A program made the translations under genes and the position numbers. Source: Candidatus Omnitrophota bacterium (GTDB lineage Bacteria > Omnitrophota > Gorgyraeia > Gygaellales > Profunditerraquicolaceae). Taken from it: DNA of 41,913 nucleotides. Where the stretch lies: contig JAFGET010000109.1 of the NCBI GenBank assembly GCA_016931435.1, positions 1 to 41,913 on the forward strand, given 5' to 3'. This document shows positions 2,688-33,595 of this stretch, one piece after another. Numbering within the stretch: position 1 is the stretch's first letter; the number at the start of each line of letters is the position of its first letter. The notes under the pieces are model-generated. The model ran no database searches and had not been told where the DNA came from. It saw nothing but the letters and a program-made list of their open reading frames with translations.

Positions 2688-2772
2688 ATCATTTCCAGAG
2701 TTTCCAGTAACCCCACCTCTGGGGCTACTGTATATTCAACGAGTTCCTGGGACGGAACCCGGCAACCGTAGC

Positions 2773-3132: not shown

Positions 3133-3278
3133 ATATACCCTCCCGTGAATCTCAAATATCAAAATCCAAATGACAAATGAATCTTAAAAATCCCAATAAC
3201 AAATATTAAAATAAATCATTTTAAAATTTGGAATTAAAGAATCGGCTTGGATTTTTGTATTTGACATTTGGATTTTCA
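3133..3278. repeat. AT-rich inverted pair of heptanucleotide-periodic arrays (spacer A)
   Basis: caaaatccaaatgacaaa (3160..3177) is the reverse complement, with 1 mismatch, of tttgacatttggatttt (3260..3276). There is 7-nt phasing on both arms (tatcaaa|atccaaa|tgacaaa; ttggatt|tttgtat|ttgacat|ttggatt). The 17-mer recurs exactly at 31548..31564. Confidence 0.8.
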
Positions 3279-12177: not shown

Positions 12178-12249
12178 TGCGCCTGACAGGAATCGAACCT
12201 GTATCACTAGCTCCGGAGGCTAGTGCCCTATCCGTTGGGCCACAGGCGC
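12178..12249 (-). tRNA. tRNA-Arg (anticodon CCG)
   Basis: The reverse complement GCGCCTGTGGCCCAACGGATAGGGCACTAGCCTCCGGAGCTAGTGATACAGGTTCGATTCCTGTCAGGCGCA folds as a cloverleaf. It has a 7-bp acceptor stem, anticodon stem CTAGC/GCTAG, loop CT-CCG-GA, and T-loop TTCGATT. No CCA is encoded. Confidence 0.9.
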
Positions 12250-17354: not shown

Positions 17355-18815
17355 TTAGGGGTCAATATGTTGGAATACGTCATAAGAAGCAGTAACGTTA
17401 CCATTGACTATATATGCATCTAAAAATTCCTGTTCTGGCATAATGTTTGGGGTTACCTGTTTTAACGGATCCATCACCATCGGTCCTTCAGCAGTATCAA
17501 AAACTACCCATACGTGGTTTAATGGTGTGCCTTCAGGAACACCCATTCGTTGCGCAGTCTCTGGGTTAATTACTCCTATTTCAACATGTGCATCATAACC
17601 CGCCATTTCAAGCAGGGCCTCTGCAAAAAATGCGGCTTCAATGCAAACAAATTCTTCTCCTAATAATTCTCCGAAAGTCTGAAGGCCATTCCATAGCATA
17701 TCGTAGCTTGCTGCCCTCTGAGCATCCCTATCAGGTTCATATCCATCGGTTCCTCTCCAAAATATTTTTCGCGCCGAAACAATATCTTGGATCTGCTCCG
17801 GGACGTTCCCGTGGAAATCAACCTGCGCTATCGCAGCGGAAACGCTATCCATAAAAAAAACGTCATTTTCTACAAGTCGAAAAGATTGAGGATTGGGACG
17901 TACGCATAAAAAACTGGTGGGCCGAATCACCTCATCCGAAACAACGGCCAGGGTATAATATTGCGGCCCAAAGTCGTAAGTGAACTTATAGTCTTGGGGG
18001 CTGGCAAGGCCTATTTCGGGAGGCAGAAAGACATCGGAAGAAGGCCTCTCTAACCAGTTAATCCCCGAACCCGCAGACAGCATGGAAGCGTCTGTGCGCC
18101 CTTCTTCAAAGTCTACAGCTAAACCCGAAACATCAATAAAAATTCCGTCATTACTTACCACCATCAGTCCTTTTGCGGAATCCACGCTGTATACCGCAAA
18201 GGCAGCGCCGTTATTAATGGCTTGGATAAATTCGTTATCGACTTGTTCTACCCGGAAGCCATCCCCATCTTTTACTATTCGATAAGCCTTGACTTCTCCG
18301 CCGCTTACAGTAGCCCACCCCGAAGGTTGAGGATTGCCTTGCGTATCCAAGGTCCCTTTTGCAGCTTTGGCGTTATTTACTTGGAGGCTGGCGGGATCCA
18401 TGAACTGGAAGCTAATTGCGCTATTGAACATGGCATCTCCACCGCGTGTATAACCTCCTACGGCGTCACCCGGCAGTGTTTGCCCAATCTGAACTACTAT
18501 TAAATCACCCTGGCCGTCTCCATTAAAATCCGGCCCCCAAACTACACTATAAATCCCCGCTCCATTAGGCGTTATATATTCAAAAGGAGCGGGAGGGTCT
18601 ATTATTGACTGGTCTATTTTCGACTCTGCAGCCGTAAGTGTATCTGTAGATATTAAATCCTTGGTAGGCTTCCAATCTCCCCCTTTGTTTAACTGGGGCA
18701 ACGTCCGATAGCTACAGATACTCCACCCTTCTTCGGCCGGTGCCGACAAAAAGTAAGAAAAAACTAATAGCACCGTGATCAAACAAATTTTCTCAACCGA
18801 TCTTTTATCTTTCAT
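17355..18815 (-). CDS. secreted protein with C-terminal transglutaminase-like (Cys-His-Asp) core
   Basis: Signal-peptide-like N-terminus MKDKRSVEKICLITVLLVFSYFLSAPAEE. FNGDGQGDLIVV (FG-GAP/VCBS-like). C-terminus FVCIEAAFFAEALLEMAGYDAHVEIGV...NHVWVVFDTAEGPMVMDP fits the G-x-C..A..G...H-x-W...D-P transglutaminase-like pattern. Confidence 0.6.
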   Translation of the reverse strand: MKDKRSVEKICLITVLLVFSYFLSAPAEEGWSICSYRTLPQLNKGGDWKPTKDLISTDTLTAAESKIDQSIIDPPAPFEYITPNGAGIYSVVWGPDFNGDGQGDLIVVQIGQTLPGDAVGGYTRGGDAMFNSAISFQFMDPASLQVNNAKAAKGTLDTQGNPQPSGWATVSGGEVKAYRIVKDGDGFRVEQVDNEFIQAINNGAAFAVYSVDSAKGLMVVSNDGIFIDVSGLAVDFEEGRTDASMLSAGSGINWLERPSSDVFLPPEIGLASPQDYKFTYDFGPQYYTLAVVSDEVIRPTSFLCVRPNPQSFRLVENDVFFMDSVSAAIAQVDFHGNVPEQIQDIVSARKIFWRGTDGYEPDRDAQRAASYDMLWNGLQTFGELLGEEFVCIEAAFFAEALLEMAGYDAHVEIGVINPETAQRMGVPEGTPLNHVWVVFDTAEGPMVMDPLKQVTPNIMPEQEFLDAYIVNGNVTASYDVFQHIDP

Positions 18816-18952: not shown

Positions 18953-21900
18953 CTATTGACCTGATCCATATTGCCAATTTAAAAACTCCATGTAATCTGC
19001 AGGACTATTTATATTCTGAATGGTATTTACATACTGGCCTATATTCGTTTCATTAATCGTAAAGGGTTCATAACCGTACCGCATCAAAATCCAATTCACA
19101 ACAAGATATCCGGTCCTATCATTGTAGTCATGGAATGGGTGGGTATATATATATCTGGAATAGAAATTAGCGGCTAACTGGAACACTTCTTCTCTCGTTC
19201 TGTTAGGATCAGCATCTAATCGTTCAATACCTTCTTCTAAGGAAGCATATATTCCTTCCATCCTGGGTCTTACTTCATTTACTGGAGCTAACCATTCTGG
19301 GTGGGCGACTCCGGCGCCAGCATCACCCAGGCGGTAATACTGATTAAAAACCGTAACTAAGTCATGCACCATGGGGTTTGGGCTGGCTTCGGCTAGAATA
19401 CGATAAACAGATTCTATTGTGCTTTGATCAGGCGCCACCCCTTGCTCTACATATTGATTCACTAATGCTGCTGCATCTTGTAGCGCTTGGACTTCTGCCG
19501 GACGAAACCTTCCTTCGTTAGTTATCCCAATAGCAGCAGTATCAAACTGCGGGGAAGGAGCAAGCATCCCGCCTGACCAAACACCTACAGATCCATCATT
19601 AGGATTATAGAATCCACGTATGGTAGAGTTCTGTGCATCTTGAATCGGAATCAACCCTTCGGCAGTGACTGTTTCGTTGGGACTACGTATCCATCCTGCC
19701 GGAATCGCAATCGCCTCCGTAGTATTACCCCTGGCCTCAACCGTTGTTTCTGCCGGCATGATCTGTGCCCCTAATAAAGGCGTATTTAAAGCGCGGACCT
19801 CAACAGCACTTGCAGATGTATCCGCGGGAATAATAGAAAGCGGGTCAAATCCCATTTCAGTCGGCACAACCATGGCATTTTCTACGTTAATGGGGCGGCC
19901 ACCTGACATATTGTTCAGTTCAAAAATAGCTAAAATGGCAGCATCATTACCAAGTGTAGTGCCTTCGTAAGCAGCTCCTATCTTTACTTGAGTCAAAATA
20001 TTTTCGCCGCTTGCAGGATCTACAAGAGAGATACCGCGCGCGATGACAGTGCCATCTGTAGGATTTCTGAATTCAATTGCATACCCCTGTACGGTTCTGC
20101 CGCCATATTCTATGTTTCTTTGGGCGCTTTCTACTTCAAAACGAGGCCCCTCGGCAACAATATCAGTACCGGTTGATCTTGTTGCCTGGCCAAAGTGAGG
20201 ATATGCCAACATGGCAATCAAAGCGCCTGCTTCGGGGCTACCTATTAATTCTTCGGTAAGAACCGCACTACCTATAAAGACAAACTCCCGCACACTATTA
20301 TTTCCTACTCTCTGTAATACTTCACTGCCGCTATCGCCGGCGCTTACCCTGGTATAGGCAACCATGAGATTGCTTGCCCCTACAAGAGAGAAAACATCGC
20401 TTAAAAATAAAGCTTGCTCTGCCTGAGAAAGGTCTCCGGATATAAATTCACCTGCTCCTTCGGCAATTTGCCCATAGAACTGCAGCATCATCAGCTTGGG
20501 AGCGCCGTTAGCAACCATGTACCCCGCCAGCTGCCTTCCTGAACCGCTGGCTAGCGCCGCATTTAAGCTGGTAGGAGCAGTGCTGCCTCCGCTGATCGCC
20601 TTTCCGGCAAAGCCAAATGCCATATTAAAAGCATACATATCAGCAAAAATCAAAGAACCCTTGATCACGGTACCGCCTATTGTCACCGCTAAATCTCCGT
20701 CTGTTCCCAGTATGGTATAATTGACTGCATTAGTAATATTGTAATTTAGTCTATTATAAACAAAGAAATCGTTTGGGTTTATCTGAAAACCTGCAATGCT
20801 TCTTGTGTCTTCTGGCTCAATGCCTAAAAGAGCCCCCACCCAAGTACTTCTCATTTCTTCGGCTCCAATAAAAGCGGTCATCCTACCACTATCTACTCCC
20901 AGTAAATCTAACCCCATACCGCCATCTACCATTAAGCTCCCTATAACAAATCTGCCCGGGCCGGTAATAAGACTCGACACAAAGCCTAATGCGCCTTCAT
21001 TATTATTGTATATATCCACTCCATATTGATTAAACAGCATAGCTTCTACTGACAAGGGCGAAGCATCAGTCTGGGCTATCGCCACCCAGCCATTTAATTC
21101 AGGGACATATCCATAAACATTACGGAGGCCAGTAATAGGTTCTGCCGGCCCTAAGGTTACTTGCGCCACATGGATCTCTACCCCTTCTGCCAGCGTCACT
21201 CCGGCTGACTCTACTCCTACCACGGTTGCTTTCACCCCGGGCGCATATCCGTCCGGAGAGTAAGCAAGGTAGCCTTCTGGGAGTTTTTCGTAAGCAAATA
21301 CCTGGCAAGTGAAATCTGCTGCCGTGGCGTTGGGATCGCTTAAAGAAGAAAGCCCTTCAAGCTCAAAGAAAACCGTGCCGCCGTTTTGCCTTGTATAGTC
21401 ATTAAGATCAAGGAAGGTGAAAAAAAGAGCACTGAGAGCCTCCTCGCGCCAGGCGGTGTTATCGGGCAGAGAGCCGGTGCCATTAGTGATAATATCCAGC
21501 GCTAATTGATAGTATTCTGTGGGCCCTTCTCCTGAATCAATAAGAGCCTGGATCCCTTCCTGAGCAATAGGAAGCGCTGCAGGGTCGATGCTAATTTGCA
21601 AACTCCCGATTTCCTTACCCGTAGTAAGGCCGCCGGTAAGATTACCAAAACTGCCATCTAAAGGTAAGATAGCATTTCCGGAATTACGGCCAGGGCCCTG
21701 CCGATAAGGCTCATCCATATATTCCAGAGGAATTTCTTCGCTCTCAGTTATCAGGTTCACAACTTCTACGCTGGGCTCATTGGAATATTCCAGGGTAGTC
21801 TCAGCGGTAATTACGCCTGGTATAGTAGAGTTATCTCTTGCCGGAACAAGATATACCACATCCGAGTTCTGCAATCCAACTACTGCGACAAATTCTGCGC

Positions 21901-22756
21901 CATTATCCAAGGTTACTGCGCCTAGAATAATCATCCCGTTCTGCCGCATACCTTCTTCTGCGTAATCCGCGGGAGTCAAATTAATCGTTCCCCCTGCTGT
22001 AGATAGATGCGCCCCTTCGCTATCCTCGGTAATGGCGGCACTGAATTCCTCAAAAGTCATGCCGGTAGAAAATACTGTTGCGCCCTCAGGCAGTTCTGTA
22101 ACCTCAACTGCAGGTAAATAATATTCTCCTTCTGTGCCAAATGTCTTGAGCAAAAATGGATTATCGGTTACTTCTACTATCAGATATCCGCCGGTCAATG
22201 TTTGTAGCGCGCCAAGCTCATCCTGGGCAGAAATAGGACCCATGGCCTGGCCGGCCTGGTTACAGATCATCCAATCAGATGAAACCTGCGCCGGGTATAA
22301 GATTTTCTGCTGGCTATCCGGATTATTTGCCAACTCTGTCATCGACCAGCCAAGAACCAAGGCTAATCCGGGAGCGTTCTCCAAACGCGCATCAGCCGAA
22401 ACCGCGGACTCAAGCAAGCCTTGTAACTGATCGGCTGATATCCCTTTTTGATCTAAAAACGCTACGAGGTTATCATATTGTTCTTCGGGCATGCTCAGTA
22501 TTGTCCCTTGGTTAAAACCGGCTAAGGCAAAAATACTGTCAAGTTGCGCGCGGGTAAAAGTAGTGGAAGTGGTATCAGGAAGATTGTCTGTATCTATAGC
22601 TACCGGCTTAAAATCAAACTGCCCTGAATAAGGCATCGTCTTTTGCCCGCTGGATGTGCCATAGGGAGAACTACCCCAGCTTGCCTGCACTATACTCATG
22701 GTTAAGATAAGCGTGCAGATTAAAATCCTATTTATATAATTATTTGTGTTTTGCAT
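18953..22756 (-). CDS. large secreted protein (about 1267 aa) with a C-terminal Fic/Fido-like domain carrying a degenerate motif
   Basis: The start MQNTNNY at 22756 has GGAGG 5 nt upstream. Signal-like ILICTLILTMSIVQASWG. A Gly/Ala-rich hydrophobic central region. The C-terminus ends FYSRYIYTHPFHDYNDRTGYLVVNWILMRYGYEPF (motif at 19106..19141), compared with canonical HPFx(D/E)GNGRxxR. Confidence 0.75.
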   Translation of the reverse strand: MQNTNNYINRILICTLILTMSIVQASWGSSPYGTSSGQKTMPYSGQFDFKPVAIDTDNLPDTTSTTFTRAQLDSIFALAGFNQGTILSMPEEQYDNLVAFLDQKGISADQLQGLLESAVSADARLENAPGLALVLGWSMTELANNPDSQQKILYPAQVSSDWMICNQAGQAMGPISAQDELGALQTLTGGYLIVEVTDNPFLLKTFGTEGEYYLPAVEVTELPEGATVFSTGMTFEEFSAAITEDSEGAHLSTAGGTINLTPADYAEEGMRQNGMIILGAVTLDNGAEFVAVVGLQNSDVVYLVPARDNSTIPGVITAETTLEYSNEPSVEVVNLITESEEIPLEYMDEPYRQGPGRNSGNAILPLDGSFGNLTGGLTTGKEIGSLQISIDPAALPIAQEGIQALIDSGEGPTEYYQLALDIITNGTGSLPDNTAWREEALSALFFTFLDLNDYTRQNGGTVFFELEGLSSLSDPNATAADFTCQVFAYEKLPEGYLAYSPDGYAPGVKATVVGVESAGVTLAEGVEIHVAQVTLGPAEPITGLRNVYGYVPELNGWVAIAQTDASPLSVEAMLFNQYGVDIYNNNEGALGFVSSLITGPGRFVIGSLMVDGGMGLDLLGVDSGRMTAFIGAEEMRSTWVGALLGIEPEDTRSIAGFQINPNDFFVYNRLNYNITNAVNYTILGTDGDLAVTIGGTVIKGSLIFADMYAFNMAFGFAGKAISGGSTAPTSLNAALASGSGRQLAGYMVANGAPKLMMLQFYGQIAEGAGEFISGDLSQAEQALFLSDVFSLVGASNLMVAYTRVSAGDSGSEVLQRVGNNSVREFVFIGSAVLTEELIGSPEAGALIAMLAYPHFGQATRSTGTDIVAEGPRFEVESAQRNIEYGGRTVQGYAIEFRNPTDGTVIARGISLVDPASGENILTQVKIGAAYEGTTLGNDAAILAIFELNNMSGGRPINVENAMVVPTEMGFDPLSIIPADTSASAVEVRALNTPLLGAQIMPAETTVEARGNTTEAIAIPAGWIRSPNETVTAEGLIPIQDAQNSTIRGFYNPNDGSVGVWSGGMLAPSPQFDTAAIGITNEGRFRPAEVQALQDAAALVNQYVEQGVAPDQSTIESVYRILAEASPNPMVHDLVTVFNQYYRLGDAGAGVAHPEWLAPVNEVRPRMEGIYASLEEGIERLDADPNRTREEVFQLAANFYSRYIYTHPFHDYNDRTGYLVVNWILMRYGYEPFTINETNIGQYVNTIQNINSPADYMEFLNWQYGSGQ

Positions 22757-22769
22757 TTTTACCTCCAAT

Positions 22770-22806
22770 AAAAAAGCCCTGGCAAACGCTTGGGTTTACC
22801 AGGGCT
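22770..22806 (-). terminator. intrinsic terminator T2, immediately 5' of the SD of the giant gene
   Basis: Minus strand: AGCCCTGG-taaacccaagcgtttg-CCAGGGCT followed by TTTTTT, then ATTGGAGGTAAAAATG. Confidence 0.65.
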
Positions 22807-22814
22807 CTATAAAC

Positions 22815-22844: not shown

Positions 22845-23093
22845 TGGACGGACTTCTTTTGGCAACGCAGCCTCCCTTTTACAGACTTAGGGACTGTCGT
22901 TTTGCGCCCTAGCATTACTACTAGTTTGCCTTTTTCAAAAAATATTGATATTTAGTCAGGCCTCTGGCGGTCTACTTAATATTCAGTCTCTATGCTTTTG
23001 CCAAAGCGCTGACTTTTACAAAGAACAATAATGCATACTTTCGATAGAAGAGCAATTTTTTGTAAAACGAATCAAATACTTATTTCTACATAA

Positions 23094-23121
23094 AGTATAC
23101 AACATGCAGGCATGCTTTCAA
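23094..23121 (-). promoter_or_regulatory. sigma70-type promoter for the leader / giant gene
   Basis: Minus strand: TTGAAA (23121..23116), 16-nt spacer, TATACT (23099..23094). Confidence 0.5.
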
Positions 23122-23282: not shown

Positions 23283-25163
23283 TCAGTCGTAGGAAAACAT
23301 TACTGTAAAAGCCTCTTCTTGACTATCTATAAATTTAGGAAAAGGGGGAAAGGGCGAAGCTTCCTTTACGCTTTTTAAGGCTACTAGGTCCAGAAGGTTA
23401 TTTGTTGAGGCAAGGACTTTTGGCCATTCTTTAAGCTGCCCGCGGGAATCCAGAATAAAGGAAACATGGACCCTGCCTTTATATACTTCGTCTTCGCCGA
23501 TATAGCCGGAGGCGATCTGGCTGATCTTCTGCCAGATAAAGTTGCGGTATTCTATGATATTGGCAAACTCGCGGCGGTTTACTCTGGATGTCTGGTCTGA
23601 ACTGATATTTTCACTGACTATATTTCCGCCTACCATCTTCATTACGGCTCCGTCTTTGGGTTTTATTTGCAGAAGTTCGGTATAAGCGCTGTCTCCGGAC
23701 ATAATATGGGGGGTGAGCAGTATCACTAATTCTGTTTTCTTTACTTCTTTGGATTTATTGCGAAAAAGCGCCCCTAAAAATGGGATATCCCCGAAAACAG
23801 GTATGGATTTCCTCGTTTCAGACTTCTCCTCCTTGCTTAAACCGCCGATGATAATAGTCACGCCGTCTTTTAGCATCACCGAAGTCTCTGCTTCGGAAGT
23901 AGTAACGATGGGTATTTGCTCTCCCTTTGCGGTAGTATACCTTTCCGCGGCCGAGCTGATCTCGGGGCGTATCTTCATCGTCACAAAATCGTCTTTGTTG
24001 ATAGTGGGGGTAACATGTAGTTTTATACCTACGTCCACAAAATTGATCGTTTCTGAAGTAGTCACTGTCCCCCCTTCGCCAGTGACCGTTGTCTGTGACG
24101 CATAAGGCTCTTTCGTTCCTACCAGTATTTTCGCCTCCTGGTTGTTCAAGGCCATGATCCGCGGGCTTGAGAGTATCTTAGTATCTCCGATCGTGCGTAA
24201 CAAGTCGATGATACCCTTATATTGCTCTTTTCCGGTCAGGCTTAAATTATCTGTTGCCATGCCAAATGTCAGCCTATTCGCGGCGGTTGCGGTAGGAATG
24301 GAAGTGACAAACCTGAAGTTTTTGGTGATCCAATAATCCCAATCCAGGCCTGCCTCGAATTTATGCGAAGGCTTTATTTCGATGATCTGCGCGTCAATCA
24401 GGACCTGCGAAGTCTTTTCATCAAAAGCCTCGATTATCTTTGAGATCTCTTCCAGTTTTTCAGGATAATCGGTTACGATTATTTTATTTGTGCGCTCATC
24501 TATTTTAATGGAGCCTACGCCCTTGGTGATCGCTTCCTGGACCTTGGCGCTTATTTTATCCGCCTGGGAGTAATTTAATTCAAAAATTTTAGTCTGCACA
24601 AGCAAATCCGTGCTGTCGATAAAATCCTCCATTTCCTTCAGCTTTTCTTCTGTATCGATAAGTACCATGGTGTTAGACCCTTCATCTACGATGATCCTGC
24701 CGATATTGGTCTTCATCTGGGTCAGGGCGCGCGCCAGATCTATCGCCTTGGCATATCTTAAAGTGACTACTTTTACCCGGGTCTTTACCTGATGTCGCTG
24801 CCCGTAGAGAAGTTCATAGTCGCGCTGGGTCATTACATTGATGATGCCGCCTTTTTTATCATAAGCCAGGTCATTGGCTAAAAGGATTATCTCAAAGGCG
24901 TCCCAGATATCCACGTCTTTAAGAAAAAGCGTGACTCTTCCGGTTACATTTTTACCTACTACGATGTTCATCCCCGAGCGGGAAGCTATCATTTTCATAA
25001 CATCAACGACATCCATGCCTTTTATGTCTAAGGAAATCCTGCTGGGGTCCTGGGGCGGTGATGATTGAGCCGGAGCATTTGCGCGGAGATTTTCCTGCGC
25101 AAAAATTGTCCCTGTTAAAAAAATAAAAAACGCGGTTAAAACAAAAATTAATTTATTTTTCAT
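23283..25163 (-). CDS. pilQ: type IV pilus / MSHA-type secretin with C-terminal TonB_C-like extension
   Basis: The start MKNKLIFVLTAFFIFLTGTIFAQ at 25163 has GGAGGAGG upstream. N-terminal STN/secretin_N-like region (ISLDIKGMDVVDVMKMIASRSGMNIVV). Secretin core (ILSSPRIMALNNQEA...IPVFGDIPFLGALFR...LVILLTPHI). Then about 95 aa of TonB_C-like tail. Confidence 0.85.
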   Translation of the reverse strand: MKNKLIFVLTAFFIFLTGTIFAQENLRANAPAQSSPPQDPSRISLDIKGMDVVDVMKMIASRSGMNIVVGKNVTGRVTLFLKDVDIWDAFEIILLANDLAYDKKGGIINVMTQRDYELLYGQRHQVKTRVKVVTLRYAKAIDLARALTQMKTNIGRIIVDEGSNTMVLIDTEEKLKEMEDFIDSTDLLVQTKIFELNYSQADKISAKVQEAITKGVGSIKIDERTNKIIVTDYPEKLEEISKIIEAFDEKTSQVLIDAQIIEIKPSHKFEAGLDWDYWITKNFRFVTSIPTATAANRLTFGMATDNLSLTGKEQYKGIIDLLRTIGDTKILSSPRIMALNNQEAKILVGTKEPYASQTTVTGEGGTVTTSETINFVDVGIKLHVTPTINKDDFVTMKIRPEISSAAERYTTAKGEQIPIVTTSEAETSVMLKDGVTIIIGGLSKEEKSETRKSIPVFGDIPFLGALFRNKSKEVKKTELVILLTPHIMSGDSAYTELLQIKPKDGAVMKMVGGNIVSENISSDQTSRVNRREFANIIEYRNFIWQKISQIASGYIGEDEVYKGRVHVSFILDSRGQLKEWPKVLASTNNLLDLVALKSVKEASPFPPFPKFIDSQEEAFTVMFSYD

Positions 25164-25338
25164 TTTATCCTCCTCCCCCAGAAAAGGGGGGACACCCAGT
25201 ACTCCGATAAACTGGGGTGCTATCCCCAGAAAAGGGGGACACCCAGTACTCACCTCAGATAAAGGTGCACTTTGCCATCCTATAGGCAAAGGTGCATGAT
25301 AAACTGGGGTGCTATTCCCAGTAAAGATGAAAGAGTAT
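25164..25338. repeat. interleaved direct repeats and hairpins upstream of the secretin gene
   Basis: Unit X, ccccagaaaagggg(g)gacacccagtact, at 25176..25203 and 25224..25250. Unit Y, gataaactggggtgctat(c/t)ccca, at 25206..25228 and 25298..25321. aaaggtgca at 25261..25269 and 25288..25296, flanking the hairpin ctttgcc-atcctata-ggcaaag. Confidence 0.8.
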
Positions 25339-25974
25339 CTATAGATAAAGTTCTAGCCTTTGCCCTTTATAGTTTAAAATAATCTTCCCTTCCTGGATAT
25401 CTTCAAGCAGTAATTCACCTAGCGCCTGGCCGCGCGATAAATAGTAGGTCTTCTGGGCCTTTTTATCCTCTAATACTGCCTGCGTATTTTCTCCGGTGAT
25501 GATCCCTACCAGGCTGATATCTTTAATCAAATCCGCGCTCTCTTTGATTACATTACTAACGGGTTTTTCTTGGGATACCGAAGAGCTACTAAAGACTTTT
25601 CGGCTGTTTATCGCCTGGGCGTAAAACTCATAAGGCTTAATCTTATTTTCGGCTTCGGGCTTTATTTCATCGATGCCGTCTTCTTTAAGTATTGTCTTTT
25701 TATGGTCATCAAGCTTAAAAAGGGGAAGGAATAAAGAAAAAATCAAATACACGCAAGAGACTATAAAAAAAGCCATAACCACCCGTCGCAATAACGGAAG
25801 CGAAAACTCCTCGCTCCGGCTCAAGGCGCCGGAAGGGGCGGGGTAAGATTGCTTTGTTTCTTCTCTTAAGACAGGTAGCTCAAGAGTTTTTTTTATAGCC
25901 TCCGCCGGTGACTTTTTGGGGGTCCGGATCAATTTAAGCAGTTTTTCTTCAGGAGAAACGTAATTTTCCGCCAT
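25339..25974 (-). CDS. PilP / GspC / MshK-like secretin-associated protein
   Basis: One TM helix (VVMAFFIVSCVYLIFSLFLPLF). The C-terminal beta domain ISLVGIITGENTQAVLEDKKAQKTYYLSRGQALGELLLEDIQEGKIILNYKGQRLELYL is typical of PilP/GspC HR domains. It sits directly upstream of the secretin. Confidence 0.5.
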   Translation of the reverse strand: MAENYVSPEEKLLKLIRTPKKSPAEAIKKTLELPVLREETKQSYPAPSGALSRSEEFSLPLLRRVVMAFFIVSCVYLIFSLFLPLFKLDDHKKTILKEDGIDEIKPEAENKIKPYEFYAQAINSRKVFSSSSVSQEKPVSNVIKESADLIKDISLVGIITGENTQAVLEDKKAQKTYYLSRGQALGELLLEDIQEGKIILNYKGQRLELYL

Positions 25975-25975
25975 A

Positions 25976-26794
25976 TCAAACTTCTTTTAGATCCTGCCTC
26001 AAGCTTTCAATAATCCGAGCGTCCACCACAGAAAGGTCCCGCATAACTATAGACTCTAGCGCATCGTGGCATAACATCGCGATCTTACGGGGATACCCCT
26101 GGGTGTACTGATAGACCAACTGGACAGCTTCGTCGTTAAAAAGACTGTGAGGATTATTTAAACCTGCCTGCCTAAGGCGAAAACCGATCATCTCTTTAGT
26201 CTCCGCTTCATCCAGGGGGTTAATCGTATATTTTAAGGCGATCCTGTCTATAAAATTACGGATGCGCTTTATGCGCGGCATAAGTTCAACCTGCGCCATG
26301 ATCACCAATTGCAGCAATTTAAATTCATTTGTCTCGTAATTAAGGAGCATGCGCAAGACCTCCAGGTTTTCCGGGGTCATCTTCTGCCCTTCATCAATAA
26401 GCAGGATAATGGTCTTATTCTCATCGATGCTTTTTTGGAATAAATATTTCTGAAGGGCTTCTTTGAAATCAAGGGTCGACTTAAAGGCCGGGGTGATCCC
26501 GAACATGCGCACAAGGCTTAATAAAAACTGGTATTCCGATTTATAATGCGGGTCTAAAATCATATGGAATATAAAATCGCTTTCGTCCTTGAAGATCTGC
26601 AGTAACGCGCGCGAAAGCGTAGTCTTTCCCGTACCCACATCCCCTAAGATAAGGTTTAGTCCTCGTCTTAAACGCACAGAGATCTCAAGGCGTTTTAAAG
26701 CGGTATCGTGGCTTGCTGAACGGTAAAAAAATTCCGGGTCAGGGCTTGTAGAAAACGGCTCTTTCTCTAATCCTAGCGCATTAAAGTAACTCAT
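25976..26794 (-). CDS. ExeA / GspA / MshM-type AAA ATPase
   Basis: YFNALGLEKEPFSTSPDPEFFY N-terminus, Walker A GDVGTGKTT, Walker B ILLIDEGQ. Confidence 0.8.
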   Translation of the reverse strand: MSYFNALGLEKEPFSTSPDPEFFYRSASHDTALKRLEISVRLRRGLNLILGDVGTGKTTLSRALLQIFKDESDFIFHMILDPHYKSEYQFLLSLVRMFGITPAFKSTLDFKEALQKYLFQKSIDENKTIILLIDEGQKMTPENLEVLRMLLNYETNEFKLLQLVIMAQVELMPRIKRIRNFIDRIALKYTINPLDEAETKEMIGFRLRQAGLNNPHSLFNDEAVQLVYQYTQGYPRKIAMLCHDALESIVMRDLSVVDARIIESLRQDLKEV

Positions 26795-27002
26795 TCTTTA
26801 TCTCTTTTATAGATTTGCCTTTTTTTCTTAAATTATGTATTGCCTCCAGGTGCGCCAGGGTAGAATCGTCAAAATAACGAAACCTGGTTTCCGGACTACG
26901 GCCGACTTCCTTGATCAGGCCTATTTTGAGGTAAAATTTTAGAGTGTGTATAGAATAACCGCTTAAACGCGCTAAATCCTTTATTAAGTAAATATTTGAG
27001 AT
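26781..27002 (-). CDS. small MerR-type HTH protein (73 aa) lacking any in-frame ATG/GTG/TTG
   Basis: Absent from the ORF track. My translation: (I)SNIYLIKDLARLSGYSIHTLKFYLKIGLIKEVGRSPETRFRYFDDSTLAHLEAIHNLRKKGKSIKEIKNELL*. An in-frame TAA lies at 27017..27015. AAGGAGG sits 5 nt before the ATC at 27002 and there is an ATT at 26993. The stop overlaps the exeA-like start by 14 nt. Confidence 0.5.
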   Translation of the reverse strand: MSNIYLIKDLARLSGYSIHTLKFYLKIGLIKEVGRSPETRFRYFDDSTLAHLEAIHNLRKKGKSIKEIKNELL

Positions 27003-27021
27003 TTTAACCTCCTTTTATGGC

Positions 27022-27097
27022 TACTCTCTATATAGAGAGTATACTATTTTATCAATTTTTGTCAAGGAAAATATGCTGCTCTCTATATGTAGAGTAG
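27022..27097 (-). promoter_or_regulatory. promoter flanked by two palindromic operators
   Basis: Minus strand: TTGACA (27065..27060), 16 nt, TATACT (27043..27038). A perfect 20-bp palindrome tactctctatatagagagta (27022..27041) overlaps the -10. An imperfect copy ctgctctctatatgtagagtag (27076..27097) lies upstream of the -35. Confidence 0.6.
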
Positions 27098-27115
27098 ATT
27101 TAACTAAGACTGGTT

Positions 27116-27655
27116 CTAGAAAGAGGCTTGTGAAATAGAAAAGCTGGAATCAAGGAGTTGTTTATTAGGTTTTGCGGTCAATTGCAGTTTTTTAATTTTT
27201 AATAACAGGGGTGAGTTTTCCAGGTCGTAAATAAATTTCAGATAATCCTCTAAAGTAGCTTCTGCTTTTAAGTCAACGGATATCTCCTGATATGATCCGG
27301 AACTCCTGGGGGCCTGAGGCCGTATATCCAGGATATGTATTGCTGATTTCTTAGCCATATTTTCTAATAAGGCAAGCGTCTTGACTATAGTCGGTTTCTC
27401 CAAAAAAGAGAGCCCTTCTGCTGAAAGTTTATCCTCTTGATGCTTCAAGGAATCTTTTTGCGCCAAGAGGCGCGCGTATTTATTAAGCCTCGCGTTAACA
27501 AGCGCAATCTCCTTATTTAAAGAATCGTGTTTTTTAAACGCGGGCATAAGTACGCTGTTAAAAATAAGGCTTAAGGCTAACGCCGCGGCCGTAAACATCA
27601 GAATCATTTTTTCTCTGGCGGACAATACTTTTTGCATATTTATCGCCTCAGGCAA
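27116..27655 (-). CDS. PilO / MshJ-like pilus assembly protein
   Basis: N-terminal TM (MILMFTAAALALSLIFNSVLM), then a coiled coil and a small C-terminal domain. Position after the PilM-PilN fusion. Alternative start MQKVLS at 27637. Confidence 0.5.
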   Translation of the reverse strand: MPEAINMQKVLSAREKMILMFTAAALALSLIFNSVLMPAFKKHDSLNKEIALVNARLNKYARLLAQKDSLKHQEDKLSAEGLSFLEKPTIVKTLALLENMAKKSAIHILDIRPQAPRSSGSYQEISVDLKAEATLEDYLKFIYDLENSPLLLKIKKLQLTAKPNKQLLDSSFSISQASF

Positions 27656-29067
27656 TCGATCTCAAAATCCACTATTTCACCGCTTTCAGCGGCTCTTTTT
27701 GTAGCGTGTTTTAATTTAATGGTATAATCTCCCATTACTGCCGACTTCTCAAGCCCGGTAACCAAGGATAACACAGCATTCATATCTTGTGATTCCCCGT
27801 ATAGTCCGACCCATTCGCCTTCTTCATAAATAAAATTGTTCAGGGATGCCCGTGGAGGCATCAAGCGGCTGATCTCGCTCAATAAATCTAAAACTGCGGC
27901 GTTAACCTTCCTGCGGCTGTTAAGCAGCTTAAGCCGCTTTTCCATAGCTTCAAGGGGCTGCGCTTCGGTCAATACTTTACTCAACTTTATGTTCTGTTTT
28001 CTTAAATACCTTCCTTTTGCCATTAGGCTTAAGTTGATGCCTAAAGCCAAGGCTAAAGCCGCCCCCAAAACATATAGAAATATCTTGCGGTATTCTTGCC
28101 GCCTGAAGAAATTCTTTGCTTCTTCCTTTTTTTCGGGAAGCGCCAGATTTAAAAACTTGGGGGCATCTTCTAGCGTAAAACCTAAAGCATTGACCAGGGA
28201 GACCTCGGGATCGGCTATCCGGGATAAAAGACTTTCGGAGAGCTCCATCTTGCTCTTATAAGGCAAAACCTCGACGGGTAATTTCACCTGTTCTGACAGG
28301 GCCTTCGTCAATCCCGGATGAAACATGCCGGTTTCGCCGAATAAAACAACCCTCTCCGGAGGCAGGCCTGGTATCTCTTTTGTATAGACGCCCAGGGTTT
28401 TATTGGCCTCTTCCGCAAAAACGTTCTCACGCTGGGGGAGATCTTTGCCGACCTTAAAATAACGGCTAAAAAGGAGTTTTTTATCCTGAGTAAACGCTAT
28501 TTCGGTATTCGACAGATCCGTATCTACCAACATAACCGGGGCGCTCTGCTGCCTGCTAAGGTGCGCGTATAAAACACAGAGACTGAAAGAACTTAAAACT
28601 ACAGAGATATTTTTTGGGTTTAATCCTTGAAAAAAATCAAGGTAACGCTCAAGGACCTCCCGCCTGACGATAATAAGATTTATGCTGCAGTAGCCCTGAC
28701 TATCGGAAGAAATGATATCGTAGGCAGTGACCAGTTCCTCCGGAGGATAAGGCAGGAAGCGCCCTGCCTGTAAATTGGCGATCTTATCAATCTCATGCGG
28801 ATTTTGCGCCGGGACTTTTAAATAACGGCAGGTAGCTTGATTGCGCGGCAAAGAAATAATAAGGGGGTTATCTTTATAGGCAGATTGCACCAGCGCCTTT
28901 TTTAATTTTTCTTTTAGTTCCTGCCCGCTCGTGCTAAGCTCAAGCGGCTGAACAACAAGATCCAGGATTTCTCTTTTTGCGCCTAAGCCGTATTTTAATA
29001 GCTTAAAAGAATTCTCCGTAAAAGAACAAACAAAGCCGGCTTTCTTGTTTTTATTAGACTTCGTCAT
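27640..29067 (-). CDS. PilM-PilN fusion (MshI-like) pilus assembly protein
   Basis: An actin-like PilM region over the first roughly 320 aa, then a TM (IFLYVLGAALALALGINLSLM) and a PilN-like C-terminal domain. Overlaps the ATPase gene stop by 14 nt. Confidence 0.65.
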   Translation of the reverse strand: MTKSNKNKKAGFVCSFTENSFKLLKYGLGAKREILDLVVQPLELSTSGQELKEKLKKALVQSAYKDNPLIISLPRNQATCRYLKVPAQNPHEIDKIANLQAGRFLPYPPEELVTAYDIISSDSQGYCSINLIIVRREVLERYLDFFQGLNPKNISVVLSSFSLCVLYAHLSRQQSAPVMLVDTDLSNTEIAFTQDKKLLFSRYFKVGKDLPQRENVFAEEANKTLGVYTKEIPGLPPERVVLFGETGMFHPGLTKALSEQVKLPVEVLPYKSKMELSESLLSRIADPEVSLVNALGFTLEDAPKFLNLALPEKKEEAKNFFRRQEYRKIFLYVLGAALALALGINLSLMAKGRYLRKQNIKLSKVLTEAQPLEAMEKRLKLLNSRRKVNAAVLDLLSEISRLMPPRASLNNFIYEEGEWVGLYGESQDMNAVLSLVTGLEKSAVMGDYTIKLKHATKRAAESGEIVDFEIDCLRR

Positions 29068-33520: not shown

Positions 33521-33595
33521 TGTCCCCACGGGGATTTGAACCCCGGTCGAGAGCTTGAAAAGCTCTTGTCCTAGGCCAGACTAGACGATGGGGAC
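33521..33595 (-). tRNA. tRNA-Glu (anticodon UUC)
   Basis: Reverse complement: GTCCCCATCGTCTAGTCTGGCCTAGGACAAGAGCTTTTCAAGCTCTCGACCGGGGTTCAAATCCCCGTGGGGACA. Acceptor GTCCCCA/TGGGGAC, anticodon loop TT-TTC-AA, T-loop TTCAAAT. Confidence 0.9.

What the first reader, a model, noticed from the sequence alone, without database searches (positions are those of the whole stretch)
18953..22756. ~1267-aa secreted protein ending in a Fic-like domain with a degenerate catalytic motif
The architecture reads like a delivered toxin or effector. There is a signal peptide and about 600 aa of non-repetitive, probably beta-rich sequence. Next comes a roughly 250-aa Gly/Ala-rich hydrophobic stretch (GSLMVDGGMGLDLLG...FNMAFGFAGKAISGG...LAGYMVANGAPKLMMLQFYG...) that could insert into membranes. 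Further domains follow, and then a Fido-type C-terminus. The motif HPFHDYNDRTGY keeps His, Asp, Asn and the first Arg of HPFx(D/E)GNGRxxR. It replaces both Gly of the anion-hole loop (Tyr, Asp) and the last Arg (Tyr). This argues for a non-AMPylating chemistry (compare Doc kinase and AnkX phosphocholinase variants) or a pseudo-enzyme. No adjacent antitoxin-like small gene is present. The gene lies immediately downstream of a pilus/secretin cluster and behind an elaborate leader.
Basis: partly seen in the sequence, partly recalled or inferred. Interest (0 to 1): 0.7.

Follow-up and report, generated by a model that had tools for sequence, protein, structure and literature searches.

The report
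Riboswitch-gated secreted effector with Fic head
An uncultured Omnitrophota bacterium encodes a large exported, almost lysine-free protein that sits behind a c-di-GMP riboswitch and carries an atypical Fic enzyme domain on a carrier body whose C-terminal "head" is swapped for other modules in its only known relatives, which looks like a new small family of modular effector proteins.

Summary
A 1,267-aa ORF lies on the minus strand (18953-22756) with a Sec-type signal peptide. It ends in a real Fic-fold domain whose motif, HPFHDYNDRTGY, lacks both Gly residues and the last Arg. Fic support comes from Pfam (35.7 bits, cut-off 24), FICD in the PDB (3e-8), a 190-residue alignment to canonical Fic proteins, and Foldseek, where all top hits are Fic/Doc. 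GenBank already calls it "Fic family protein" but starts it 40 codons late, which removes the signal peptide.

New findings:
1. The "elaborate leader" is a c-di-GMP-I-class riboswitch aptamer (22857-22939) followed by a weak and a strong terminator hairpin.
2. The ~900-aa body has only two other known versions among 1.84 billion representatives. All are Omnitrophota-type sequences in the same chromosomal slot. Their C-terminal modules are cleanly replaced, one by a kinase-like module and one by an unknown module.
3. The family is almost lysine-free (0.2-0.9% K against 6-13% in most neighbouring proteins).
4. No antitoxin or immunity gene was found, and the inhibitory-helix motif is not intact.

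The Gly/Ala-rich segment is not a classical transmembrane domain. The adjacent pilus/secretin cluster is not conserved in the relatives.

Best reading: a c-di-GMP-regulated, exported modular effector whose Fic head is unlikely to be a canonical AMPylator. Delivery, target and chemistry are inferred, not shown.

The parts
23094..23121 (-). Sigma-70-like promoter candidate (TTGAAA-16-TATACT) about 155 nt upstream of the aptamer
   Evidence: Consensus scan, 10 of 12 matches. The number of such sites in the region is not above the shuffle expectation, so this is only a candidate. Read-through from the secretin gene is not excluded.
22857..22939 (-). c-di-GMP-I-class (GEMM-I clan) riboswitch aptamer in the 5' leader of the gene
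   Evidence: Rfam RF03167: 64.5 bits against a gathering score of 59, E 4e-13, full-length match 1-80/80. The P1b helix keeps 6 of 6 pairs with a GUAA tetraloop. The ligand-contact equivalents of Vc2 G20, A47 and C92 read G, A and C (position mapping from PMC11218506).
22815..22845 (-). Terminator-like hairpin T1. It is weak: a 10-bp AU-rich stem followed by a U6 tract.
   Evidence: Terminator scan. It forms with probability 0.998 in the folded leader.
22767..22808 (-). Terminator-like hairpin T2. It is strong: a 15-bp stem followed by a U6 tract, ending 1 nt before the SD.
   Evidence: Terminator scan; pair probability about 1.0. Before its 3' arm is transcribed, its 5' arm can pair with the aptamer core UGCUAGGGC, and this alternative is 8 kcal/mol more stable than the intact aptamer.
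22762..22766 (-). Shine-Dalgarno GGAGG, 5 nt before the ATG
   Evidence: Read directly from the sequence.
18953..22756 (-). Coding sequence of the 1,267-aa protein (stop codon included). GenBank MBN1913614.1 annotates a 1,227-aa version starting at Met41.
22679..22756 (-). Sec-type signal peptide (aa 1-26, MQNTNNYINRILICTLILTMSIVQAS). It has no lipobox.
   Evidence: Translation. It holds one of only three 19-aa windows in the protein that reach KD 1.6. Equivalent N-termini occur in L001, P0004 and P0005.
22319..22678 (-). N-terminal region (aa 27-146) specific to this protein and not shared with the relatives
   Evidence: Alignment A1.
19862..22318 (-). Family-specific carrier body (aa 147-965). 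It is acidic, nearly Lys-free and non-repetitive, and it ends at the conserved junction ...VP-x-x-x-(F)DP(L/F)(S/A)I(I/A).
   Evidence: Exhaustive HMMER search: P0002 2.8e-89, P0003 3.3e-82. Alignments A1 and A2. No Pfam, NCBIfam, PDB, PADLOC or PHROGs match. No internal repeats.
20177..20989 (-). Gly/Ala-rich, moderately hydrophobic segment inside the body (aa 590-860). Most of it is predicted, at low confidence, as long helices.
   Evidence: Translation, composition and hydropathy, small-xxx-small density 12.2 against about 6 per 100 aa. AF2 secondary structure for body residues 515-710, i.e. protein aa ~661-856, comes from a model with pLDDT below 50 there. The segment is conserved in the relatives.
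19544..19861 (-). Linker or pre-module region (aa 966-1071). It is shared with P0002 but not with P0003 and contains no Lys.
   Evidence: Alignment A1, translation.
18956..19543 (-). C-terminal Fic-fold module (aa 1072-1267), with no Lys
19106..19141 (-). Fic signature motif variant HPFHDYNDRTGY (aa 1206-1217)
   Evidence: Translation; alignment to FICD and to three plasmid Fic proteins.
17355..18815 (-). Downstream 486-aa acidic protein with a signal-peptide-like N-terminus, probably co-transcribed. It has weak FG-GAP and transglutaminase-like-core similarity.
   Evidence: ORF and translation. Pfam hits are weak, E 0.008-0.23. No terminator-like site lies in the 137-nt spacer. The gene is absent from the relatives' loci.
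23283..30781 (-). Upstream pilus / type II secretion-like cluster. In transcription order: MshE-type ATPase with an MshEN domain, PilM/PilN fusion, T2SS-M-like, AAA_22 (ExeA/MshM-like), T2SS-C-like, and a secretin with a TonB_C tail.
   Evidence: Pfam and NCBIfam. The T2SS-C and T2SS-M hits are below Pfam cut-offs. The cluster is absent from this position in the relatives.

Best explanation
This is an exported modular effector gated by a c-di-GMP riboswitch.

Shown:
- The mRNA leader carries a c-di-GMP-I-class aptamer followed by a weak and a strong intrinsic-terminator-like hairpin.
- The protein has an N-terminal signal peptide of the Sec / signal peptidase I type.
- It has a ~900-aa acidic, almost lysine-free body that exists in only two other known versions.
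- It ends in a ~200-aa Fic-fold module.
- In the relatives, which sit in the same chromosomal slot (TP_methylase ... pyrR), the body is conserved. The C-terminal module is cleanly replaced, in one case by a kinase-like module and in the other by an unrelated module.
- The Fic module keeps the catalytic His, the Mg-binding Asp, the Asn and the first Arg. It has Tyr and Asp side chains at the two anion-hole Gly positions and Tyr in place of the last Arg. It has no intact inhibitory-helix motif and no antitoxin gene.

Inferred:
- c-di-GMP controls read-through into the gene. The direction is unresolved, with a slight lean towards OFF at high c-di-GMP.
- The protein is exported by Sec. It may pass the outer membrane through the neighbouring secretin system.
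- The body is a carrier or delivery scaffold and the C-terminus is an exchangeable enzymatic head that acts on another cell, a host or prey of this ultra-small bacterium.
- The Fic head does not bind ATP in the canonical AMP-transfer mode. It may use an inverted or different substrate as Doc does, remove a modification as proposed for Bep8 with Glu at G2, or act by binding only.
- Lysine avoidance is a selected trait of a protein that has to survive or travel in a foreign compartment.
For: Fic fold: Pfam 35.7 bits against a cut-off of 24; XopAC profile aligned over aa 1089-1252; FICD 3.4e-8; 30 of 30 plasmid tblastn hits annotated Fic, the best covering 83% of the module; ~190-residue alignment including the flap-like YR...H-PP segment, the motif and GYPP; all top 50 Foldseek hits are Fic/Doc, with FICD at probability 1.0.

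Motif deviations. A side chain at G2 is reported to block triphosphate binding in Bep8 (Glu) and goes with inverted ATP binding in Doc (Lys) (PMC8401265). The last Arg binds the gamma-phosphate (PMC4454073). None of the five catalogued Fic/Doc motif groups matches HxxxDYNDRxx[not R]. The exact motif variant gave 0 hits in the metagenome collection.

Riboswitch: RF03167 at 64.5 bits against 59, E 4e-13; two terminators; a weak-strong dual-terminator precedent in Bc1 (PMC11218506).

Export: SD plus ATG and conserved signal peptides.

Modularity: only 3 relatives among 1.84 billion representatives. The P0002 and P0003 bodies are 67-93% identical per 100-column block, and their tails 14-26%. At DNA level identity is 71-88% through the body, 27-53% for about 900 nt, then 70-87% again from the pyrR leader onward. 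Synteny is conserved.

Lys avoidance: 12 of 1267, 2 of 1093 and 2 of 1091 residues, against 6-13% K in 27 of the 29 proteins tabulated from this contig. The single Lys in P0002's tail lies at a kinase beta3-like position.

No antitoxin. No alpha-inh motif in the module.

Context: Omnitrophota are suggested to be host-dependent or predatory (PMC10066038). Their giant secreted proteins are typically preceded by T2SS/T4P-like loci and followed by c-di-GMP-binding pilZ genes (bioRxiv 10.1101/2023.11.21.568195).
Against: - Nothing shows delivery into another cell. There is no known trafficking domain, no immunity gene and no orphan cassettes.
- The family has only three or four sequences, so 'polymorphic' rests on three tail types.
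- The body could not be assigned a fold (AF2 pLDDT 40).
- The Gly/Ala-rich segment has no TM-grade helices.
- The riboswitch and the secretion cluster are absent from the relatives' loci. Regulation and export route may therefore be specific to this one genome.
- At thermodynamic equilibrium both terminators form whether or not the aptamer is folded, so ligand-dependent control is not demonstrated.
- The Fic structure model is mediocre (pLDDT 63.5). The active-site loop is its least confident part, so nothing can be said about pocket geometry.
- Lys depletion could reflect constraints of secretion or extracellular life rather than a foreign cytoplasm.
Confidence: 0.5

Rival explanations
1. It is a secreted or surface-exposed structural or adhesive protein. 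The Fic-like C-terminus is then a catalytically dead binding module (a pseudo-enzyme), as described for BepC-type FIC domains that act by binding a partner.
For: Three positions of the signature motif are replaced, including both anion-hole glycines. No inhibitory helix or antitoxin is needed. Non-catalytic FIC effectors are documented (PMC8401265). c-di-GMP riboswitches commonly control surface and adhesion factors (general knowledge). Omnitrophota large secreted proteins have been proposed to act as adhesins.
Against: The catalytic His, the metal-binding Asp, the Asn and the first Arg are all retained, which is unexpected for a decayed site. The orthologous tails look enzymatic: one is kinase-like and keeps a lone Lys at the beta3 position. 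No adhesin-type repeats or known binding domains occur in the body.
Confidence: 0.2
2. It is a self-directed envelope regulator. A periplasmic or cell-surface Fic enzyme would modify or de-modify the producer's own proteins, for example components of the neighbouring pilus/secretion machine, in response to c-di-GMP. On this reading it is not an inter-cellular effector.
For: The gene sits among housekeeping genes rather than on a mobile island, and the slot is syntenic in the relatives. It is adjacent to an MshE-type ATPase with an MshEN domain in a pilus/secretion-like cluster. An acidic residue at G2 has been proposed to support deAMPylation (PMC8401265). The lack of an antitoxin fits a non-toxic role.
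Against: The C-terminal module is exchanged for unrelated modules in the orthologues, which is hard to reconcile with a fixed housekeeping target. The periplasm lacks ATP for transferase chemistry (general knowledge). Extreme Lys avoidance and a 900-aa orphan carrier body are not features of known regulatory Fic proteins. The pilus cluster is absent from the relatives' loci.
Confidence: 0.12
3. It is a conventional AMPylating (or other NMP-transferring) Fic toxin despite the odd motif. It would be one member of an interbacterial polymorphic toxin system whose immunity gene lies elsewhere or was missed.
For: The closest relatives by sequence and structure are AMPylators such as FICD, IbpA and class II Fic proteins. 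The conserved-body, variable-tail pattern is typical of polymorphic toxins. Backbone amides, not side chains, form the anion hole (general knowledge), so bulky residues might be tolerated.
Against: Published structures indicate that a side chain at G2 is incompatible with canonical triphosphate binding. The gamma-phosphate-binding Arg is missing. No immunity-like gene follows the gene in any of the three loci. No known polymorphic-toxin trafficking domain is present.
Confidence: 0.08

Closest known systems
Fic/Fido superfamily, closest to class II Fic proteins (FICD/HYPE and plasmid-borne 'Fic family proteins' of Bacillota)
   Same: Same fold by profile, sequence and structure searches. The alignment covers about 190 residues and includes the flap-like YR...H-PP segment, the alpha4-loop-alpha5 motif and the following GYPP. 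His, Phe, Asp, Asn and the first Arg of the motif are retained.
   Different: G1 is Tyr, G2 is Asp and the last Arg is Tyr. The S/T-x-x-x-E-G/N inhibitory motif that the aligned relatives carry is not intact here. The domain sits at the C-terminus of a 1,070-aa exported carrier and contains no lysine.
Doc (P1 phage toxin, a kinase) and Bep8-type Bartonella FIC domains, i.e. Fic variants with a side chain at G2
   Same: Like Doc (HxFxDANKRTAL), it deviates at G1, G2 and the last Arg. Like Bep8, it has an acidic residue at G2. In both cases the literature concludes that canonical ATP binding is excluded.
   Different: Doc has Lys, not Asp, at G2. The Doc model scores below its cut-off (22.5 against 38.65). 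Bep8 has lost the His in half of its members and is a T4SS substrate with a BID domain. Tyr at G1 is not in any catalogued motif group.
Polymorphic toxin / effector systems (conserved N-terminal carrier, exchangeable C-terminal toxin)
   Same: The body is conserved, and the C-terminal module is sharply replaced between conserved flanks after a conserved junction motif. The heads are enzyme-like (Fic, kinase-like).
   Different: No recognised trafficking domain (TPS/FHA, Rhs/YD, PAAR, LXG, MafB and so on). No downstream immunity gene or orphan cassettes. Only three tail types are known. The locus lies among housekeeping pyrimidine-biosynthesis genes.
c-di-GMP-I (GEMM-I) riboswitches, in particular Bc1 of the Bacillus cereus group with its dual terminator
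   Same: The aptamer scores above an Rfam gathering threshold and has G/A/C at the three ligand-contact positions. The expression platform has a weak upstream and a strong downstream terminator, as in Bc1.
   Different: The best-scoring Rfam model is the GGC variant (RF03167), yet the position that is G in that model's consensus is A here. The regulated gene encodes a Fic-domain protein. The organism is an Omnitrophota bacterium. No conserved homologous leader exists in the relatives.
A chains of AB toxins (cholera toxin, ricin, Shiga toxin, CDT)
   Same: Extreme arginine-over-lysine bias. In those toxins it protects the translocated chain from lysine-directed ubiquitination (PMC4030972).
   Different: In this family the bias covers the whole ~1,100-1,270-aa protein, not just the enzymatic part. 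No B subunit or receptor-binding domain is identified. The likely partners of Omnitrophota are other microbes rather than animals.

Membership tests
Fic/Fido superfamily (PF02661) | Profile match above the curated threshold, and Fido fold | tested here: met
   Pfam 35.7 bits against a cut-off of 24; FICD 3.4e-8; all top 50 Foldseek hits are Fic/Doc; 190-residue alignment to canonical Fic proteins.
Fic/Fido superfamily (PF02661) | Catalytic His at the start of the signature motif | tested here: met
   His1206 in HPFHDYNDRTGY.
Canonical AMPylating Fic enzymes | Complete motif HxFx(D/E)GNGRxxR: both anion-hole Gly residues and the gamma-phosphate-binding last Arg | tested here: not met
   G1 is Tyr, G2 is Asp, the last Arg is Tyr. 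The roles of these residues are taken from PMC8401265 and PMC4454073.
Canonical AMPylating Fic enzymes | Inhibitory helix motif (S/T)xxxE(G/N), in cis or on an adjacent antitoxin | tested here: not met
   No match within aa 1072-1267. The four matches elsewhere (aa 205, 220, 243, 1029) are close to my own rough chance estimate of about 2 per protein. Where the aligned relatives have SNAIEGN, this protein does not. No small neighbouring ORF.
Canonical AMPylating Fic enzymes | Target-docking beta-hairpin flap | tested here: inconclusive
   A segment YYRLGDAGAGVAHPE aligns with the relatives' flap region YRxxNVxISGSxHxPP. The AF2 model has pLDDT below 50 there and predicts no hairpin.
Doc toxins (TIGR01550) | Motif HxFx(D/N)(A/G)NKR with Lys at G2, and a score above the family cut-off | tested here: not met
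   Asp at G2. TIGR01550 scores 22.5 bits against a cut-off of 38.65.
AnkX-type phosphocholine transferases (NF043028) | Family-level profile match | tested here: not met
   E 0.085, 11 bits against a cut-off of 1400.
Polymorphic toxin systems | Conserved N-terminal region with unrelated C-terminal modules among homologues, and a sharp junction | tested here: met
   There are three tail types. DNA identity drops from 71-88% to 27-53% and recovers in the pyrR leader.
Polymorphic toxin systems | Recognised secretion or trafficking domain (TPS/FHA, Rhs, PAAR, LXG, etc.) | tested here: not met
   Only a Sec signal peptide was found. The body gives no hits in Pfam, NCBIfam, PDB, PADLOC or PHROGs.
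Polymorphic toxin systems | Cognate immunity gene immediately downstream | tested here: not met
   The next gene is pyrR in L001 and L002. In the window it is a 486-aa exported protein, with no plausible small ORF in the spacer.
c-di-GMP-I riboswitch clan (CL00126) | Covariance-model score above the gathering threshold over the full aptamer | tested here: met
   RF03167 at 64.5 bits against 59, model positions 1-80 of 80.
c-di-GMP-I riboswitch clan (CL00126) | Ligand-contact nucleotides equivalent to Vc2 G20, A47 and C92 | tested here: met
   G at model position 10, A at position 37 and C in J2/1. The 27-nt spacing between the first two matches G20/A47 in Vc2 and G11/A38 in Bc1.
c-di-GMP-I-GGC variant (RF03167) specifically | G at the A47-equivalent position. 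This definition of 'GGC' comes from my recollection of Weinberg et al. 2017 (PNAS), which could not be retrieved. | tested here: not met
   The model consensus is G at position 37 and the window has A. The paper look-ups failed.
c-di-GMP-I riboswitch clan (CL00126) | Ligand binding, and ligand-dependent switching of the expression platform | not testable with these tools
   Terminators are present. Equilibrium folding does not discriminate between states. A kinetic competitor helix exists.

The most novel reading that the evidence does not exclude
This would be the founding member of an AB-toxin-like class of translocating effectors from ultra-small, host-dependent Omnitrophota bacteria. A c-di-GMP-gated, nearly lysine-free carrier would use its Gly/Ala-rich helical region to move an exchangeable enzymatic head (Fic, kinase or other) across the membrane of a host or prey cell. 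Lysine avoidance would protect it there from lysine-directed tagging and degradation (ubiquitin, SAMP or Pup-like systems). The Fic head, with Asp at G2 and Tyr at G1, would carry out a chemistry not yet described for the Fido fold.
Probability: 0.12. Interest if true: 0.85.

Novelty: new variant of a known kind. Interest (0 to 1): 0.6.

Why it matters
If the reading is right, it offers a tractable handle on how uncultured Omnitrophota nanobacteria interact with other cells. The handle is a small effector with a defined regulatory input (c-di-GMP), a defined export signal and swappable enzymatic heads.

It would also add a Fic active-site variant (H-P-F-x-D-Y-N-D-R, no last Arg) that none of the five catalogued motif groups covers. 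The variant has an acidic G2 residue, which bears on the open question of which Fic proteins are transferases, de-modifying enzymes or pseudo-enzymes.

The near-total avoidance of lysine across a 1,100-1,270-aa protein, in a contig whose other proteins are lysine-rich, is an unusually clean compositional signal that calls for an explanation.

Practically, the GenBank record starts the gene 40 codons too late and so hides the signal peptide. The riboswitch also shows why a family label should be checked before a ligand is inferred from it: the best model is the 'GGC' variant, yet the contact nucleotides are canonical.

Tried and rejected
- The k-mer-prefiltered homologue search with the full protein found only the protein itself. 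With the C-terminal 225 aa and then 196 aa it found nothing, even at E up to 10 (one search was a parameter error). No deep alignment could therefore be built for the Fic module.
- The metagenome scan with the family alignment found no relative. The genome scan found only the STA_54 MAG that was already known.
- A degenerate DNA pattern for HPFxDYNDRT in metagenome contigs gave 0 hits.
- AF2 of the body with a 3-sequence alignment gave pLDDT 40 and is unusable. I ran no further search on it.
- A family profile of the body against PDB sequences gave nothing. PADLOC and PHROGs matched only the Fic region.
- The tail of P0003/P0005 has no PDB, Pfam or NCBIfam match. My impression of a caspase/CPD-like His...Cys pattern (VITLHGG...FNSCNS) is unsupported by any tool.
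- Riboswitch search in the relatives' leaders found none.
- The Weinberg 2017 paper that defines the GGC variant could not be retrieved.
- ON/OFF direction of the riboswitch: equilibrium folding has both terminators formed with or without the aptamer, so it stays undecided.
- I considered and rejected the idea that the Gly/Ala-rich region is a transmembrane anchor. I also rejected the idea that the 486-aa downstream protein is an immunity protein, because it is large, has an export signal and is absent from the relatives. A lipoprotein signal was rejected too, since there is no lipobox.

Full report
OBSERVATION

The ORF exists on the minus strand. It runs 18953-22756 from an ATG and encodes 1,267 aa. 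A GGAGG Shine-Dalgarno lies 5 nt upstream of that ATG. The public record is MBN1913614.1, 'Fic family protein', from a Candidatus Omnitrophica/Omnitrophota MAG. The window is its whole 41,913-bp contig. That record starts the protein at Met41 (1,227 aa), which cuts off the N-terminus MQNTNNYINRILICTLILTMSIVQAS. This segment has the n-, h- and c-regions of a signal peptidase I signal and no lipobox. Equivalent N-termini (...IAIVL..FL..QQ(S)SWAYF) occur in all relatives for which the 5' end is available. The longer start, and therefore export, is the better model.

THE FIC DOMAIN IS REAL

- Pfam PF02661 scores 35.7 bits against a gathering cut-off of 24 (aa 1173-1224).
- NCBIfam's XopAC model aligns aa 1089-1252. 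Doc and AnkX models score far below their cut-offs.
- phmmer against PDB sequences gives human FICD at 3.4e-8 over about 95 residues. BT_2513, C. elegans Fic-1 and IbpA follow.
- tblastn against plasmids returns 30 records, all annotated Fic. The best covers 83% of the module.
- An alignment with three of these covers about 190 residues. It includes the flap-like YR...H-PP segment, the signature motif and the following GYPP.
- A single-sequence AlphaFold model is mediocre (pLDDT 63.5, with 60-94 in the C-terminal half). All of its top 50 Foldseek hits in the PDB are nevertheless Fic or Doc structures: FICD at E 4e-3 and probability 1.0, BT_2513 over 119 columns at 4.0 Å rmsd, and Doc with a TM-score of about 0.53 when normalised by the length of Doc.

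THE MOTIF

HPFHDYNDRTGY (aa 1206-1217, window 19106-19141) aligns with FICD HPFIDGNGRTSR and with HPFxDGNGRTxR in the plasmid Fic proteins. His, Phe, Asp, Asn and the first Arg are kept. G1 is Tyr, G2 is Asp and the last Arg is Tyr.

Published work states that the last Arg binds the gamma-phosphate. It lists five Fic/Doc motif groups, and none has this pattern (PMC4454073). Other work reports that a side chain at G2 makes canonical triphosphate binding impossible, as with Glu in Bep8. There the acidic residue was proposed to support deAMPylation. In Doc, a Lys at G2 goes with inverted ATP binding and kinase activity (PMC8401265).

The aligned relatives carry the class II inhibitory motif (SNAIEGN). 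This protein does not have it at the corresponding place. No (S/T)xxxE(G/N) occurs in aa 1072-1267. The four matches elsewhere in the protein are close to my rough chance estimate of about two. A degenerate DNA pattern for HPFxDYNDRT found no match in the metagenome contig collection. The head is thus a Fic-fold domain that very probably does not bind ATP in the AMP-transfer mode. What it does instead is not known.

THE LEADER

Rfam finds a full-length c-di-GMP-I-clan aptamer at 22857-22939 on the coding strand. It matches RF03167 at 64.5 bits against a gathering score of 59, with E 4e-13. RF03167 is the 'GGC' variant model. At the position where that model has G (model position 37), the window has A. 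Model position 10 is G and the J2/1 C is present.

The Bc1 paper maps G11/A38/C81 of Bc1 to G20/A47/C92 of Vc2, with the same 27-nt spacing (PMC11218506). G20 and C92 pair with the two guanines of c-di-GMP (PMC5888326). By its contact nucleotides the aptamer therefore looks canonical, and c-di-GMP is the expected ligand. The meaning of 'GGC' as G20/G47/C92 comes from my memory of Weinberg et al. 2017, which I could not retrieve.

Downstream lie two terminator-like hairpins. The first is weak and AU-rich (22845-22821, plus U6). The second is strong with a 15-bp stem (22808-22773, plus U6) and ends just before the SD. Bc1 has the same weak-strong arrangement.

Folding shows both hairpins formed at equilibrium whether or not the aptamer is enforced. 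However, while only the 5' arm of T2 has been transcribed, that arm pairs with the aptamer core (UGCUAGGGC with GCCCUGGUA). This alternative is 8 kcal/mol more stable than the intact aptamer. That is a possible kinetic antiterminator and would make c-di-GMP an OFF signal. I rate this only as a lean.

A sigma-70-like promoter candidate lies at 23121-23094.

THE BODY AND ITS RELATIVES

The k-mer search found only the protein itself. An exhaustive HMMER search of 1.84 billion cluster representatives with aa 1-1080 found three others:
- P0002, 1,093 aa, E 2.8e-89, from a JGI metagenome contig.
- P0003, 1,091 aa, E 3.3e-82.
- P0004, a 155-aa N-terminal fragment.

P0003 and P0004 come from one Omnitrophota MAG, STA_54. 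A full-length version of the P0003 type is P0005, 1,186 aa. Genome and metagenome scans added nothing.

The body (our aa ~147-965) is 21-46% identical to P0002 per 100-residue block of our sequence. It has no internal repeats and no match in Pfam, NCBIfam, PDB sequences, PADLOC or PHROGs. The AlphaFold model built from three sequences is unusable (pLDDT 40).

C-TERMINAL MODULE EXCHANGE

The P0002 and P0003 bodies are 67-93% identical per 100-column block. Their tails are 14-26% identical.

At DNA level, the two loci are 71-88% identical up to the codons for ...QQDPFAIA. They are unalignable (27-53%) for about 900 nt. Identity returns to 70-87% from the PyrR-binding leader through pyrR.

Our protein shares the junction (...GFDPLSII...). 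It also shares about 100 further residues with P0002 and then carries Fic.

P0002's tail collects weak but concordant kinase-class hits in four searches:
- Pfam APH, E 0.013.
- PDB ROP5 and Ser/Thr kinases, E from 0.03.
- NCBIfam LanL, LanKC and Bud32.
- A PHROG 'kinase' family, E 0.009.

The P0003 tail matches nothing.

All loci sit in the same slot. In the relatives it is gyrA-glmS-TP_methylase-[gene]-pyrR-pyrB-pyrC. In the window the order is the same, with two insertions. A pilus/secretion-like cluster and the riboswitch lie upstream, and a 486-aa exported protein lies downstream. No immunity-like gene follows any of them, and the 137-nt spacer in the window has no credible ORF. The relatives' leaders have no riboswitch.

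LYSINE AVOIDANCE

The protein has 12 Lys in 1,267 aa (0.9%) and none in the last 302 residues. Its pI is 4.1. Of the 29 proteins I tabulated from the contig, 27 have 5.7-13.4% Lys. The two exceptions are this protein and the downstream 486-aa protein, which has 3.1%.

P0002 and P0003 each have two Lys in about 1,090 aa. One is at a conserved body position. The other is in the tail, and in P0002 it lies in GTVLKRY, where a kinase beta3 catalytic Lys would be. Arg is kept at 2.6-3.3%.

Such an arginine-over-lysine bias is the known signature of AB-toxin A chains. There it prevents ubiquitin-dependent degradation after translocation (PMC4030972). Whether the cause is the same here is speculation. 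Secretion-pathway or extracellular constraints are alternatives.

THE GLY/ALA-RICH SEGMENT

In aa ~590-860 the composition and the conservation in the relatives are confirmed. Small-xxx-small motifs are twice as dense as elsewhere. Only one 19-aa window reaches KD 1.6. Charged residues interrupt every stretch of 20 aa or more except a low-complexity patch. It is not a constitutive membrane anchor. A conditional, amphipathic insertion or translocation role can be neither supported nor excluded.

CONTEXT

The upstream cluster (23283-30781) encodes, in transcription order:
- an MshE-type ATPase with an MshEN domain, a domain type known to bind c-di-GMP (my own knowledge);
- a PilM/PilN fusion;
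- T2SS-M-like and T2SS-C-like proteins (both hits below Pfam cut-offs);
- an ExeA/MshM-like AAA_22 protein;
- a secretin with a TonB_C tail.

A preprint on Omnitrophota giant proteins reports the same theme. T2SS/T4P-like loci lie upstream of large secreted proteins, and c-di-GMP-binding pilZ genes lie downstream (10.1101/2023.11.21.568195). Omnitrophota are proposed to be largely host-dependent or predatory nanobacteria (PMC10066038). Because the cluster is missing from the relatives' loci, I treat secretion through it as possible but not established.

VERDICT

The finding is real and richer than described.

What is shown:
- an exported protein with a genuine but non-canonical Fic head;
- a c-di-GMP-class riboswitch with a dual terminator;
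- a tiny orphan family with C-terminal module exchange;
- near-absence of lysine.

What is inferred:
- that the protein is an effector acting on another cell;
- how it is delivered;
- the sign of the riboswitch;
- the chemistry of the head.

I file it as a new variant of known kinds (Fic effectors, polymorphic-toxin-like modular proteins, c-di-GMP-I riboswitch regulons) and not as categorically new. Interest is about 0.6.

Noticed in passing
window 22637-22756 (minus strand): The GenBank record MBN1913614.1 starts the protein at Met41 (1,227 aa) and so omits the signal peptide. The upstream ATG at 22756 has a GGAGG SD, and the signal peptide is conserved in the relatives.
   Followed up: yes
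window 17355-18815 (minus strand): A 486-aa acidic protein (pI 4.2, K 3.1%) with a signal-peptide-like N-terminus lies directly downstream and is probably co-transcribed. It has weak FG-GAP hits (E 0.008) and a weak transglutaminase-like core hit (E 0.23). By eye, its C-terminus has a Cys...His...Asp pattern (FVCIEAAFF...NHVWVVF...VMDP). A paper reports tandem c-di-GMP-I riboswitches upstream of COG1305 transglutaminase-like genes in Bacillota. The gene is absent from the relatives' loci.
   Followed up: partly
window 29054-30781 (minus strand): The secretion/pilus ATPase carries an MshEN domain (Pfam 4.6e-19). By eye, its N-terminus also resembles the MshEN c-di-GMP-binding motif (LIGQMLIKEGVITPEQLEAGLIEQ). 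c-di-GMP may therefore act on both the machine and the downstream gene. No GspF/PilC platform gene and no pilin genes were seen in the cluster within the window.
   Followed up: partly
window 23283-25289 (minus strand): The secretin has a C-terminal TonB_C-like domain (aa 604-666, Pfam E 3.4e-4, TIGR01352 5.4e-5), which looks like an unusual fusion. It scores just below the cut-offs of the PilQ, GspD and MshL models, so its system type is undecided.
   Followed up: no
L001 5120-5874 (P0002 tail) and L002 about 2500-3276 (P0003 tail): The alternative C-terminal modules are a ~150-aa minimal kinase-like domain, whose only Lys is at the beta3-like position, and a ~290-aa module with no database match that contains VITLHGG...IFNSCNS.
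   Followed up: partly
L001 5995-6097, and the aligned stretch of L002 (alignment A3, columns ~1505-1620): A PyrR-binding-site-like leader (RF00515, 38.9 bits, below the gathering score of 54) precedes pyrR in L001. The aligned stretch of L002 is 80-87% identical and marks where identity between the two loci resumes. In the window, Rfam reported no such element between 17052 and 17354 at gathering level.
   Followed up: no
window aa 1166-1256 of the target (about 18990-19260): The Fic region also matches PADLOC candidate defence family PDC-S04 (E 1.9e-8) and an uncharacterised PHROG family (phrog_11900, E 4.5e-9). These are presumably generic Fic similarity.
   Followed up: no
window 35318-37327 (minus strand): A YcaO cyclodehydratase-domain protein fused to TPR repeats, followed by a 360-aa ORF without any Pfam match (33779-34861). 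Neither gene is present between gyrA and glmS in the STA_54 relative (L003).
   Followed up: no
window 12178-12249 and 33521-33595 (minus strand): Two tRNA genes were found by Rfam. The rest of the contig is a pyrimidine-biosynthesis neighbourhood (pyrR, pyrB, pyrC, and Pfam matches for OMP decarboxylase, dihydroorotate dehydrogenase and its Fe-S subunit) plus an Fpg-type glycosylase, glmS and gyrA. There are no signs of a mobile element around the gene.
   Followed up: partly
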